DNA from: the human T2T-CHM13v2.0 reference genome, Homo sapiens
Assembly: GCF_009914755.1 (NCBI RefSeq)
Contig: NC_060947.1
DNA length: 64,000 bases
Direction: 5' to 3' (one strand)
In this document: in pieces, positions 54,230 through 56,100 of the stretch
Layout: every line of letters starts with the position of its first letter
Position numbering within the stretch: the first letter of the stretch is position 1
Notes under the pieces: model-generated
What the model was told of the DNA's origin: nothing
The model's database searches: none
What the model saw: the letters and a program-made list of their open reading frames with translations, nothing else
Program-made: the position numbers and the translations under genes

Positions 54230-56100
54230 TAAAAATAGGGTTATGGTTTTTCTTCCTACCCCAGACTCTACCAGATGACTCATTCCTACTACATAGAAAT
54301 AACAGTGAATGTCAACCATAACACAGATGCCTATTTATTTCTCTCCTTACTGACTCATTTTTGAGAGCTTTTTAGCTAGTTGTGCTATTTAGTTGATCTC
54401 AAAGTTATCTTCTGCAGGGAAGTTTCGGTGGAAAGAACACCGATATTTGTTGAATGATTGCTCTGTGTCAAACATAGGGCTAGTTGTTTTTAAGGAGGTC
54501 TAATCAACTCTGAGGTAATAAACACTATTGGATTTTGGAGAATGAGAAAACTTGATTGTGGAAAACAGAACCAGTTTCTAGACCGCCACTCAGCTAATAT
54601 GTGACAGAAGAAATATCCCTTATCCCCATCCATTGATTTTATTTCTTTTTGCTTCAGATTTAAAGAGCATGTGACAAATAGTCTAGCCTTTCTCTGTCTT
54701 AGCCCCATTGCAGTCACTGTTAACCAACTATCTTCTTGAAACCAAAATGACTCAGCCTAACCACAGAAGCAAATCAAACACTGATGGCCCATAATCTCCA
54801 GACAAGGCTTTAACCAAACCTCTGTCTATCCATCTATCCATTTGTTCATTCATTCAACAGATATTTGTTGAGCATTGACTCTTTGCTAGACATTGTGTGA
54901 GGGGTTGTTGTTGATGCTAGAGTAGAACTATTTATCTTCCACAAATGAGGCATGACCCTGCTAGGGACCTGTGTTACTAGCAAGCAGCTTTGAGGTCAGG
55001 GTAGGAAGTGAGGATAGAGTCTCAGAAGGAAGAAAATAAATATTTACAGAGTGTGGATTGTATCCAATTCATGGGATCCTGGGAAGTTCATTAACTGCCA
55101 GGAGGATTCCTAGTTCTCAGCTCTAGGCAGCAGCAACTTGGAAGGCTTCTCTGAAGGTGGACTCCGAAGGGTCTAAGGCTCAGATGTTCCCCTTTCAGCT
55201 TCTGCCCTCCATTCCCTGCACTCCTAGGTCTTAGATGGTCATGCTTGTCTCTGTATCCAAAACCTACTTTTGGCACATTTTTATTTCCTCCCAAGCTGTA
55301 AGAACAGCTTGTTCACTTGGGAAGGTCATACTTCAAAGTGGAACTCTGCCATTTCAGAGGGGCTTTGAAGATACACAGTATACCTGGGGGAGTGAAGGAG
55401 TTGGGTCTCACTCCCCAGGATAAGGCAAACAAAAACAAGAACAGACACATATCACTATGACTTAGGTATGGATTAAAGATTAACTGCACCTTGCACAGAG
55501 GTGGCTCTCAATACGTTTTCTGCATTCCATCTTGAGCATCATTTTTTGGCTCTATTGTATTCTACACTTCCTTCCCAGAAGTTCACAGTGTTTCCTAATT
55601 CACTGATAAGCAGTTAAAAAATTGCCCCACATTTGGTATTACAAAAGTTTATGCACCACGTTTCTTTTTTTTTTGAGACAGAGTCTCGCTCTGTTGCCCA
55701 GGCTGGAGTGCAGTGGCACAATCTCGGCTCCCTGCAAGCTCTGCCTCCCGGGTTCATGCCATTCTCCTGCCTCAGCCTCCCGAGTAGCTGGGACTACAGG
55801 CGCCCGCCACCATGCCCGGCTAATTTTTTGTATTTTTAATAGAGACGGGGTTTCATTGTGTTAGCCAGGATGGTCTTGATCTCCTGACCTTGTGATCTGC
55901 CCGCCTCAGCCTCCCAAAGTGCTGGGATTATAGGCGTGAGCCACCACGCCTGGCCTGCACCATGTTTCTTAAAGGCATATATAGTGATTGTTTTCTTTTC
56001 TAGTTTTGCTAATAGTGTATGTTTTGCTGATCATGTAGTAACAGTGTTTTCTTTATAAATTTATGAAAGTACAAAAAGATATATATGAAAACAAATGAGC
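54230..56100 (+). other. Second decayed duplicate: GLA intron 1 / promoter / HNRNPH2 exon 1 and intron 1 relic
   Basis: Anchors 54475 vs 31655, 54711 vs 32172, 55024 vs 32403, 55418 vs 33250, in order. By-eye alignment. Confidence 0.6.
55663..55955 (-). mobile_element. Alu (Y-type)
   Basis: Alu consensus; TSD TGCACCA(C/T)GTTTCTT. Confidence 0.92.

What the first reader, a model, noticed from the sequence alone, without database searches (positions are those of the whole stretch)
54230..56100. Second relic copy carrying a dead GLA/HNRNPH2 bidirectional promoter and HNRNPH2 exon 1
Seen: ordered anchors to 31.3-33.7 kb: TAGGGCTAGT 54475/31655; CAGTCAC..TAACCAA..TTCTTGA 54711/32172; AGAAGGA(A/G)GAAAAT 55024/32403 (end of HNRNPH2 exon 1); AAGT(G/A)GAAC..CTGCC near 55337/33169; GGATAAGGCAA 55418/33250; similarity continues to ~56100. 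CpGs, E-boxes and the exon donor are eroded. Because GLA intron-1 sequence near 31655 appears at both ~42670 and 54475, there seem to be three units, not one split copy. Established: HNRNPH2, ARMCX/GPRASP and BEX/TCEAL genes share a promoter motif (BGW) traced to the GLA promoter. Inference: these relics are fossil intermediates of the tandem amplification that seeded those clusters.
Basis: partly seen in the sequence, partly recalled or inferred. Interest (0 to 1): 0.75.

Follow-up and report, generated by a model that had tools for sequence, protein, structure and literature searches.

The report
Decayed duplicate of HNRNPH2 intron segment
The right-hand part of this stretch is an old, eroded and apparently functionless copy of a piece of the first HNRNPH2 intron, not of the GLA/HNRNPH2 promoter or first exon, so it is an ordinary genomic fossil that adds a small detail to how this X-linked gene cluster grew.

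Summary
Partly real. Window 55336-56080 (possibly from 55036) is homologous to 33169-33645 (possibly from 33049): nhmmer E 4e-11 to 6e-12, about 70% identity over 400 aligned columns, no hit with the reversed control. That target lies in HNRNPH2 intron 1, at least 0.6 kb 3' of exon 1.

The three anchors behind the promoter and exon-1 claim (54475, 54711, 55024) are at chance level. A BGW profile that finds the true HNRNPH2 element (32302-32393) finds nothing in 54230-56100. That stretch has no CACGTG, no CpG island (o/e 0.10) and no GLA or HNRNPH2 coding trace.

The copy (C) belongs to a local family of four same-strand modules: A (HNRNPH2 intron 1), B (42848-43276, holding an ARMCX4 5'UTR exon), C, and D (just beyond the window). 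A/C and B/D are equally diverged (K2P 0.39). This fits one old block duplication starting downstream of the promoter.

It is a neutral fossil of modest interest.

The parts
54230..55035 (.). No detectable relation to 31.3-33.0 kb or to any BGW element. AT-rich and CpG-depleted.
   Evidence: Anchor tests are not significant. k-mer chains are at chance. The BGW profile gives no hit. nhmmer --max of 54230-55035 against 304 kb gives one weak hit, E 0.015, to an unrelated locus. GC 0.39, CpG o/e 0.10. No CACGTG.
55036..55335 (+). Possible left extension of the copy. 55036-55165 aligns with 33049-33168, followed by about 170 bp present only here.
   Evidence: Semi-global score 14.5, reached by 0 of 300 shuffles and by 0 of 205 real tiles on either side, whose maxima were 11.5 and 14.0. 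Marginal; nhmmer starts the hit at 55301-55337.
55336..55441 (+). Module C, first part: a unit ending in an A-rich tail, homologous to 33169-33273 (which ends in an A18 run).
   Evidence: A 26-nt pattern from its conserved block (up to 2 mismatches) gives 9 genome matches including these two, against 1 for the reversed control.
55442..55664 (+). Module C, middle part. About 50 nt are a dispersed-repeat word (about 55473-55521). Unique sequence follows, with a polypyrimidine tract and an AG at 55577-55578 in the column where the sister copy B has the acceptor of an ARMCX4 exon. It is cut at 55664 by the Alu.
   Evidence: Four-way alignment A2. R1 model: 128 bits. The repeat word has 6544 genome matches vs 0 for the control.
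55665..55968 (-). Alu insertion (55665-55955) plus the second copy of its 13-bp target-site duplication (55956-55968; first copy 55652-55664). It is younger than the duplication and absent from A.
   Evidence: Sequence read. Sub-threshold Rfam SRP hit at 55673-55820, minus strand. 96 other Alu copies of at least 250 bp in 154 kb, median identity 83%.
55969..56080 (+). Module C, last part, homologous to about 33560-33645.
33049..33645 (+). Module A, the source-like paralogue in HNRNPH2 intron 1. It lies 615-735 bp 3' of exon 1 (32337-32434). The firm part is 33169-33645.
   Evidence: A-C: 400 aligned columns, 69.8% identity, K2P 0.39.
42848..43276 (+). Module B, which contains the ARMCX4 alternative 5'UTR exon 43025-43115 (acceptor tag|a, donor g|gt). 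It is closest to module D, just outside the window at window-equivalent 69954-70403.
   Evidence: The pair profile hits 42927-43113 at E 2.2e-7. B-D: 54 bits, E 7e-18; B-C: 14.5 bits, E 1e-5. Sequence read. Exon coordinates are from the hub's gene table.
32302..32393 (+). The true BGW element of HNRNPH2. It served as the positive control for the profile that finds nothing in the finding.
   Evidence: E 4.3e-6 with a profile of 12 ARMCX/BEX-type elements built without it. E 2.2e-5 with a single seed. CACGTG at 32295 and 32328.
39899..41135 (+). Segment Y' (with an Alu at about 40351-40645). It is duplicated at window-equivalent 65598-66564 with 73-91% identity. Its core, 40841-40975, is paralogous to GLA intron 2.
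   Evidence: A whole-genome DNA search finds only 4 places, all on this chromosome. The core pattern has 3 genome matches, all in this locus, against 0 for the control.
27004..27130 (+). GLA intron-2 piece (Y), homologous to the cores of Y' and Y'''.
   Evidence: The Y profile hits it at E 6.6e-12. 74-76% identity. Alignment A3.

Best explanation
Window 55336-56080 (perhaps from 55036) is a neutral, decayed paralogue of a 0.5-0.6 kb piece of HNRNPH2 intron 1 (33169-33645, perhaps from 33049). A local segmental duplication made it long ago, and an Alu later split it.

Shown:
- The homology itself.
- Its composite make-up in the same order in both copies: a unit with an A-rich tail, then a fragment of a dispersed repeat, then unique sequence.
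- Its membership of a local set of four same-strand modules A, B, C and D.
- The absence of any promoter, BGW, exon-1 or coding trace.

Inferred:
- C arose together with D when a block running from A to B (about 33.05-43.3 kb) was copied to about 55.0-70.4 kb. On this reading the left edge of C is the duplication breakpoint and the copy never contained the promoter or exon 1.
- Earlier, a unit running from GLA intron 2 to HNRNPH2 intron 1 had been copied once, giving Y' ... B.
- C does nothing today. It sits in an ARMCX4 intron as the dead sister of a module that supplies an ARMCX4 5'UTR exon in copy B.
For: Homology:
- nhmmer gives E 3.7e-11, 6e-12 and 8e-15 in the four-sequence set. The reversed control gives 0 hits.
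- The inter-anchor segment beats 300 of 300 shuffles and 192 of 192 real tiles.

Not a plain interspersed repeat:
- Whole-genome DNA searches with the A and C pieces and with B return only themselves. A true repeat from the window (26169-26597) returns 538 candidates.
- The 26-nt block pattern gives 9 matches against 1 for the control. The repeat word gives 6544 against 0.
- In 326 kb of local DNA the module model R1 finds strongly only A, B, C and D (115-136 bits), all on the + strand within 37 kb. The other 6 of its 10 rows score 21 bits or less and cover the repeat word.
- Homology extends on both sides of the repeat word for A-C (0 of 200 shuffles on each side), downstream for B-D, and downstream for A-D (27.5 against maxima of 23 in shuffles and 22 in real tiles).

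Block duplication:
- Three collinear + strand pairs exist: A-C; Y'-Y''' and U1-U3 (41808-42103 vs 69447-69760); and B-D.
- Divergence is equal for A-C (K2P 0.39), B-D (0.39) and U1-U3 (0.42).

No promoter or exon.
Against: - The link between the A/C pair and the B/D pair outside the repeat word rests on one significant pair (A-D). B-C, A-B and C-D are not significant there.
- Y'-Y''' is much less diverged (K2P 0.13-0.20) than A-C or B-D. One event therefore needs constraint or gene conversion on Y.
- 11.7 kb lie between B and C with no collinear low-copy matches to the DNA after D, so this is not a clean tandem duplication.
- No HNRNPH2 coding relic lies between C and Y'''. That requires the duplication to predate the retrogene, or a later deletion.
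- The whole-genome DNA search cannot see 65%-identical copies; it missed C from A and D from B. 'Low copy' therefore rests on the pattern counts and on 304-326 kb of local DNA.
- No repeat library (Dfam/RepeatMasker) and no other mammalian genome was available.
- A promoter copy eroded beyond detection cannot be excluded by sequence from one species.
Confidence: 0.78

Rival explanations
1. The interval is a full relic copy of the GLA/HNRNPH2 unit that once carried the bidirectional promoter, the BGW element and HNRNPH2 exon 1. These are now eroded beyond recognition in 54230-55335.
For: - The confirmed homology lies only about 0.6-0.7 kb 3' of exon 1 in the source.
- Elsewhere in the locus, a GLA intron-2 piece and a module related to the intron-1 piece occur in the same order (Y' ... 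B, and Y''' ... D). A unit spanning the promoter was therefore probably copied at least once.
- CpG-rich promoters decay fast once methylated (general knowledge, not tested here).
Against: - Anchors 1-3 are at chance: 123, 25 and 40 of 200 shuffles reach them.
- Chains are at chance.
- The flank 300-600 bp to the left has z -0.4.
- The BGW profile finds no hit at E<=100 with filters off, yet it finds the real element at E 4e-6.
- nhmmer --max of 54230-55035 finds nothing related.
- There is no GLA exon trace, no CACGTG, and CpG o/e is 0.10.
- Profiles of Y and U find nothing in 44-55 kb.
Confidence: 0.12
2. A and C are independent insertions of the same old interspersed repeats that happen to lie 22 kb apart. 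On this view they are not a duplication.
For: - The middle of the module holds about 50 nt of a word with 6544 genome matches. Model R1 picks up that word at unrelated places: window 9214-9330, L023, L022 and 57777-57820.
- Old repeat families with pairwise identity of 65% or less would escape the whole-genome DNA search used here.
Against: - The homology is about 480-600 bp and runs well beyond the repeat word on both sides.
- It includes an internal A-rich tail followed by the repeat fragment in the same order in both copies. That is a composite, which a single element would not give.
- The conserved 26-nt block of the first unit is essentially unique in the genome.
- All four modules lie on one strand within 37 kb, and none was found in the other roughly 290 kb searched.
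- There are collinear partners Y'/Y''', U1/U3 and B/D.
Confidence: 0.07
3. The similarity is chance, helped by A-rich low complexity.
For: Part of the first HSP's score comes from the A-rich tail. Real tiles reach a raw score of 24 against 27 for this HSP, mostly through the A run at 33258-33300.
Against: - nhmmer gives E 4e-11 to 6e-12, with 0 hits for the reversed query.
- The second-best HSP lies on the neighbouring diagonal.
- The inter-anchor and downstream segments, which lack the A run, are significant on their own.
Confidence: 0.01

Closest known systems
BGW element and the duplication model of the Xq22 BGW cluster (Winter & Ponting 2005, PMC1274310; Navas-Perez et al. 2020, PMC7586669; passages read by term search)
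   Same: It is the same locus and the same general process. The published model says the GLA/HNRNPH2 region with its BGW motif 'was duplicated' before the BEX/TCEAL and ARMCX genes formed. The copies found here lie at the centromeric edge of that cluster.
   Different: The copy in the finding carries no BGW motif, E-box or 5'UTR exon 1. What survives is intron-1 sequence. The passages I read describe the roughly 57-60 bp motif only. They mention no copies of HNRNPH2 intron 1 or GLA intron 2 in the HNRNPH2-ARMCX4 interval.
Ancient segmental (local) duplication relics and pseudo-exons in introns
   Same: - Low-copy, same-strand, collinear similarity of about 70% identity with many indels.
- Interrupted by younger repeats.
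- No open frame and no CpG island.
- A sister copy (B) is used as an exon.
   Different: It is too old and too short to appear in standard segmental-duplication maps. That those maps use a threshold of at least 90% identity and at least 1 kb is my recollection, not something tested here.
Dispersed SINE/LINE tail (MIR/L2 3' end by my recollection; no repeat library was available)
   Same: About 50 nt in the middle of all four modules carry a word with 6544 genome matches.
   Different: The rest of the module (at least 400 bp in A-C) is not part of that repeat and is essentially unique to this locus.

Membership tests
BGW element (Bex/GASP/Wex promoter and 5'UTR motif) | Match to the roughly 57-60 bp motif shared by ARMCX, BEX/TCEAL and HNRNPH2 first exons | tested here: not met
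   A profile of 12 elements collected from chrX loci finds HNRNPH2's own element at E 4.3e-6. None of its 18 rows at E<=100 with filters off lies in 54230-56100.
BGW element (Bex/GASP/Wex promoter and 5'UTR motif) | Internal E-box (CACGTG) | tested here: not met
   Of 13 CACGTG in the window, 0 lie in 54230-56100 and 2 lie in the HNRNPH2 element. Decay of the CpG could hide it.
Relic of the GLA/HNRNPH2 bidirectional promoter plus HNRNPH2 exon 1 | Above-chance alignment to 31.8-32.45 kb | tested here: not met
   Anchors 1-3 are not significant. Chains are at chance. nhmmer --max of 54230-55035 gives no related hit.
Relic of the GLA/HNRNPH2 bidirectional promoter plus HNRNPH2 exon 1 | Trace of GLA exon 1 or 2 coding sequence, or of a CpG island | tested here: not met
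   tblastn with GLA gives 5 hits outside the gene, all with E>=2 and none in 40-71 kb. CpG o/e is 0.10, against 0.71 at 31.8-32.9 kb.
Old local segmental duplication (paralogous relic) | Significant collinear similarity that extends beyond known repeats | tested here: met
Old local segmental duplication (paralogous relic) | Low copy number in the genome, with copies clustered and on one strand | tested here: met
   Limited by the sensitivity of the genome search and by having only 304-326 kb of local DNA.
Old local segmental duplication (paralogous relic) | Both copies present at orthologous places in other eutherians; age consistent with divergence | not testable with these tools
   No other mammalian genome is held. 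K2P 0.39 suggests an age near or before the eutherian radiation, but only by a recalled neutral rate.
   Only about 50 nt are a high-copy word. The flanks are significant on their own and their conserved block is unique. No Dfam library was available to name families.
Alu SINE (55665-55955) | SRP-RNA-related sequence, terminal T/A run, target-site duplication, many similar copies | tested here: met
   Rfam Metazoa_SRP at 57.9 bits, below the gathering score, minus strand. A 13-bp duplication at 55652 and 55956. 96 similar copies in 154 kb.

The most novel reading that the evidence does not exclude
The 45 kb from GLA intron 2 to about 70.4 kb is a fossil array left by two rounds of local duplication of the GLA-5'/HNRNPH2-5' unit.

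Round 1 copied a unit running from GLA intron 2 through the bidirectional promoter to HNRNPH2 intron 1. This gave Y'-(Z')-CpG island-B at 39.9-43.3 kb. On this reading the CpG-island promoter at 42.2-42.85 kb and the 5'UTR exon 43025-43115 that ARMCX4 now uses descend from that copy.

Round 2 copied the block from A to B, giving C ... Y''' ... D.

No HNRNPH2 coding trace lies in the second block, so round 2 would predate the HNRNPH2 retro-insertion. That order is the reverse of the one drawn in the published scheme.
Probability: 0.25. Interest if true: 0.55.

Novelty: new member of a known kind. Interest (0 to 1): 0.3.

Why it matters
The eutherian-specific Xq22 'BGW' cluster (ARMCX, GPRASP, BEX, TCEAL) is a textbook-type case of new genes assembled from retrocopies plus a borrowed promoter. 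The published scheme says that 'the region was duplicated' but rests on a 60-bp motif.

Low-copy relics such as A-D and Y/Y'/Y''' would give longer markers for the size, order and breakpoints of those early duplications. They could also trace the origin of ARMCX4's upstream promoter and 5'UTR exons.

For the interval in hand the practical message is negative. It holds no dead promoter or exon 1. It is a neutral fossil inside an ARMCX4 intron, close to the Fabry-disease gene GLA but with no sign of function.

Tried and rejected
- Whole-genome DNA searches with the 109-bp pieces, with module B and with the promoter region found only the queries themselves, plus one chr6 match to HNRNPH2 exon 1. 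The tool cannot see 65-70% identity, so these say little about old copies.
- Searching the genome with a DNA alignment or with the sequence-only model R1 was not accepted. I used patterns and local searches instead.
- Segment X (26169-26597, 43654-44074, window-equivalent 68400-68791) at first looked like a third marker of the units. It is a dispersed repeat with 538 genome candidates, so I dropped it.
- The pieces 33954-34103 and 38373-38653, which match 59118-59551, are also a repeat family (15 and 8 local hits). They show no special affinity to the block-2 copy, so they are not evidence for the block duplication.
- A GLA exon-2 relic at 41658-41836 (Z') is only weakly supported: about 20 bits by nhmmer, roughly 55-60% identity by eye in alignment A4, and no tblastn support.
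- CpG-island sequences (32.4-33.05 kb, 42.15-42.85 kb) give many weak hits to ARMCX CpG islands. I treat these as compositional.
- Module profiles found no further copy in the 10-kb ARMCX1, ARMCX2, ARMCX3 and ARMCX4 loci, nor in the seven roughly 3-kb loci around other BGW elements.
- No ncRNA and no ORF above 72 aa was found.
- The six CACGTG at 57107-57260 belong to a TA/CA-rich minisatellite.
- The enhancer paper PMC10753776 (passages) concerns the RPL36A 5' region and has no bearing here.
- Paper searches listed no paper describing these relic copies. This holds only for that library. I did not open the supplementary figures of PMC7586669 (its BGW alignment, Fig. S6).
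Full report
THE QUESTION. The proposal rested on five ordered anchors to 31.3-33.7 kb. The hub's gene table places the interval in an ARMCX4 intron, 16 kb beyond HNRNPH2.

CHECK OF THE OBSERVATION
Sensitive blastn of 53.5-56.6 kb against 30-34.5 kb gave strong hits only between Alus. It gave one non-Alu + / + hit, 55336-55441 vs 33169-33273, at 65% identity over 109 columns. 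This hit contains anchors 4 and 5. It was the only hit of 53800-55650 in the whole window at E<=1e-2.
- Its raw score of 27 exceeds 200 of 200 dinucleotide shuffles (mean 14.5, max 19).
- It also exceeds the best score of 43 other real tiles (13-24, many driven by the A run at 33258-33300).

Anchors 1-3 carry the promoter and exon-1 claim, and they fail.
- Local alignment of +-120 bp scores 10.0, 13.0 and 12.0, reached by 123, 25 and 40 of 200 shuffles.
- Ordered k-mer chains are at chance.
- The word said to recur near 42670 does not occur there.

THE SIMILARITY IS LONGER THAN ONE HSP
The interval holds an Alu (55665-55955, minus strand) with a 13-bp target-site duplication at 55652 and 55956. 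With the Alu and one duplication copy removed:
- The two best + strand HSPs against 31300-36050 fall on neighbouring diagonals.
- The 276-bp stretch between them aligns with its counterpart better than 300 of 300 shuffles (z 5.8) and better than 192 of 192 real tiles.
- nhmmer reports one hit, 55338-56080 to 33171-33645, at E 3.7e-11 in 326 kb. Against 304 kb it gives 33135-33645 at E 6e-12, and the reversed query gives nothing at E<1.
- A local alignment has 400 aligned columns, 69.8% identity, 118 gapped bases and K2P 0.39.

A further 120-130 bp on the left (55036-55165 vs 33049-33168, followed by about 170 bp found only in the copy) is marginally significant. It is reached by 0 of 300 shuffles and by 0 of 205 real tiles on either side, but the real-tile maximum of 14.0 is close to the observed 14.5. 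Further flanks show nothing (z -0.4 and -0.2).

The target, however, is HNRNPH2 intron 1, at least 615 bp beyond the end of exon 1 (32434).

NO PROMOTER, BGW OR EXON 1
I first confirmed the background in print. The BGW motif of about 57-60 bp with an E-box is shared by ARMCX/GASP, BEX/TCEAL and HNRNPH2. A BGW-like sequence lies upstream of GLA in marsupials (passages of PMC1274310 and PMC7586669).

I then fetched the ARMCX4, ARMCX1, ARMCX3 and ARMCX2 promoter regions from the same genome. I found their shared element, collected further copies on the X, and built a profile of 12 elements.
- Without HNRNPH2 in the profile, it still finds the HNRNPH2 element at 32302-32393 (E 4.3e-6).
- None of its 18 rows at E<=100, filters off, lies in 54230-56100. 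In 41.9-43 kb the sister profile gives only a meaningless row (E 52).

Other tests on the interval are also negative.
- It has no CACGTG: 13 in the window, 2 of them in the true element.
- CpG o/e is 0.10, against 0.71 at the real promoter.
- There is no GLA or HNRNPH2 protein trace, no Rfam match other than the Alu, and only four ORFs of 60-72 aa.
- nhmmer with filters off, using 54230-55035 against 304 kb, gave one unrelated weak hit.

WHAT THE COPIED PIECE IS
A profile of the two copies also hit 42927-43113 (E 2.2e-7) and a place 6 kb beyond the window (locus L020, window-equivalent 70034-70162; E 1.4e-3). I call the four modules:
- A: 33049/33169-33645.
- B: 42848-43276.
- C: the finding.
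- D: window-equivalent 69954-70403.

Pairwise nhmmer gives A-C 44 bits, B-D 54 bits, B-C 14.5 bits and A-D 5-7 bits. All four lie on the + strand.

In the four-way alignment the best conserved stretch is a word of about 50 nt. It is a dispersed-repeat sequence: a 22-nt pattern from it has 6544 genome matches against 0 for the reversed control. The model R1 built from the alignment picks up that word at unrelated places. By recollection it looks like the 3' tail of MIR/L2. No repeat library was available to test this.

Outside the word, homology is significant for A-C on both sides, for B-D downstream, and for A-D downstream (27.5 against maxima of 23 in 200 shuffles and 22 in 119 real tiles). 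It is not significant for B-C, A-B or C-D. The two pairs are solid. Their link to each other is moderate.

Directly after the word comes a polypyrimidine tract and an AG. In B this AG is the acceptor of the RefSeq ARMCX4 exon 43025-43115 (gene table). C keeps the AG (55577-55578), but it has no GT where B has its donor, and the Alu sits there.

DUPLICATION, NOT INDEPENDENT REPEATS
- The A and C pieces and B return only themselves in whole-genome DNA searches, whereas a real repeat from the window returns 538 candidates. That tool misses copies of about 65% identity, so I added a pattern test. The 26-nt conserved block of the first unit, with up to 2 mismatches, has 9 genome matches including A and C, against 1 for the control.
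- In 326 kb of local DNA, R1 gives 115-136 bits to A-D only. The other 6 of its 10 rows score 21 bits or less.
- A and C share a composite order: a unit ending in an A-rich tail (A18 in A), then the repeat fragment, then unique sequence. Independent insertions would not reproduce this order.

A LARGER PATTERN
Tiling 20-76 kb against 304 kb and direct comparison showed a second, better preserved duplication. 39899-41135 matches window-equivalent 65598-66564 at 73-91% identity. This segment (Y') has only 4 places in the genome, all on the X.

A short segment U (41808-42103 vs 69447-69760) and B-D follow in the same order. A-C, Y'-Y''', U1-U3 and B-D are thus collinear on one strand. A-C, B-D and U1-U3 are equally diverged (K2P 0.39, 0.39 and 0.42). 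This fits one copying of a block running from A to B. Under that reading the left edge of C is the breakpoint and the copy never held the promoter.

Caveats to the block model:
- Y'-Y''' is far more similar (K2P 0.13-0.20).
- 11.7 kb separate B from C.
- No HNRNPH2 trace lies in the second block.

The core of Y' is itself homologous to a piece of GLA intron 2, 27004-27130 (profile E 6.6e-12; alignment). Its 29-nt core pattern, with up to 3 mismatches, occurs three times in the genome, all here. The order 'GLA intron-2 piece, then module' therefore recurs at 27.0/33.3 kb, 40.9/43.0 kb and 66.3/70.1 kb. This suggests an earlier copying of a unit that spanned the promoter. A GLA exon-2 trace at 41658-41836 is only weakly supported.

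None of this was found upstream of C. Profiles of Y and U give nothing in 44-55 kb.

VERDICT
There is an old relic copy, and there are more than two related units. But the copy holds intron-1 sequence, not a promoter, BGW or exon 1, and its role as an 'intermediate that seeded the clusters' is not shown.

Function: none apparent. It is a neutral fossil, the dead sister of a module that provides an ARMCX4 5'UTR exon elsewhere.

By a recalled neutral rate, K2P 0.39 would put the event near or before the eutherian radiation. I could not test this without other genomes.

I found no description of these copies in the two BGW papers' passages or in two full-text searches. I did not open the supplementary files.

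Noticed in passing
window 39899-41135 and L020:1598-2564 (window-equivalent 65598-66564): A locus-specific duplication of about 1.2 kb at 73-91% identity. It lies between HNRNPH2 and the ARMCX4 upstream promoter, with an Alu (about 40351-40645) in the first copy only. The genome search finds only 4 places. Two of them are short matches (76-79% identity over 60-75 bp) inside the BEX/TCEAL part of the cluster, at C23:101632270 and C23:101970814.
   Followed up: partly
window 27004-27130 (GLA intron 2): This piece is homologous to the core of the duplication above and to two short sequences in the BEX/TCEAL region (alignment A3). Its 29-nt core pattern is found only three times in the genome, all in this locus. 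So GLA intronic sequence, not only the BGW motif, has copies downstream.
   Followed up: partly
window 42200-42850 and 43025-43115: The CpG island (GC 0.66, o/e 0.63) with the ARMCX4 alternative first exon 42393-42485 lies between a weak GLA exon-2-like trace (41658-41836) and module B. This is the position the bidirectional promoter would hold in a copied unit. No BGW or other specific similarity to the GLA/HNRNPH2 promoter was detectable.
   Followed up: partly
window 33954-34103 and 38373-38653: These are two halves of an old dispersed repeat (L1-like by recollection) that are contiguous in at least 6 other copies in the local DNA. Here they are 4.3 kb apart and bracket the HNRNPH2 coding exon (36051-38248). 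This suggests that the retrogene block was inserted into that repeat. I saw no clear target-site duplication.
   Followed up: partly
L022 (window-equivalent 84032-84235, minus strand, and 87472-87793, plus strand): Further partial copies of segment Y (inverted; E 5e-13) and of segment U (E 1e-85 within its own profile; 70.6% identity to the copy at 69.4-69.8 kb) lie deeper in the ARMCX4 intron. The local duplications therefore go beyond the four modules.
   Followed up: no
window 56788-57567: A TA/CA-rich minisatellite (periods 10-88). It contains six CACGTG spaced about 30 bp apart (57107-57260). These are part of the simple repeat, not a promoter E-box cluster.
   Followed up: yes
L004 (G000:C6:160959678-160959768, minus strand): A 79% match to HNRNPH2 exon 1 (window 32325-32421) on another chromosome. 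It was the only match of the promoter region outside this locus. I did not examine it further.
   Followed up: no
window 32517-32812 vs L006:6371-6689 (ARMCX1 locus) and L005:5448-5687 (ARMCX4 main promoter): Weak similarity (E 4e-6 and 2e-4) between the start of HNRNPH2 intron 1 and the sequence just 3' of the BGW exon of ARMCX1 and ARMCX4. This may mean the shared unit is longer than the motif, or it may be CpG-island composition.
   Followed up: no
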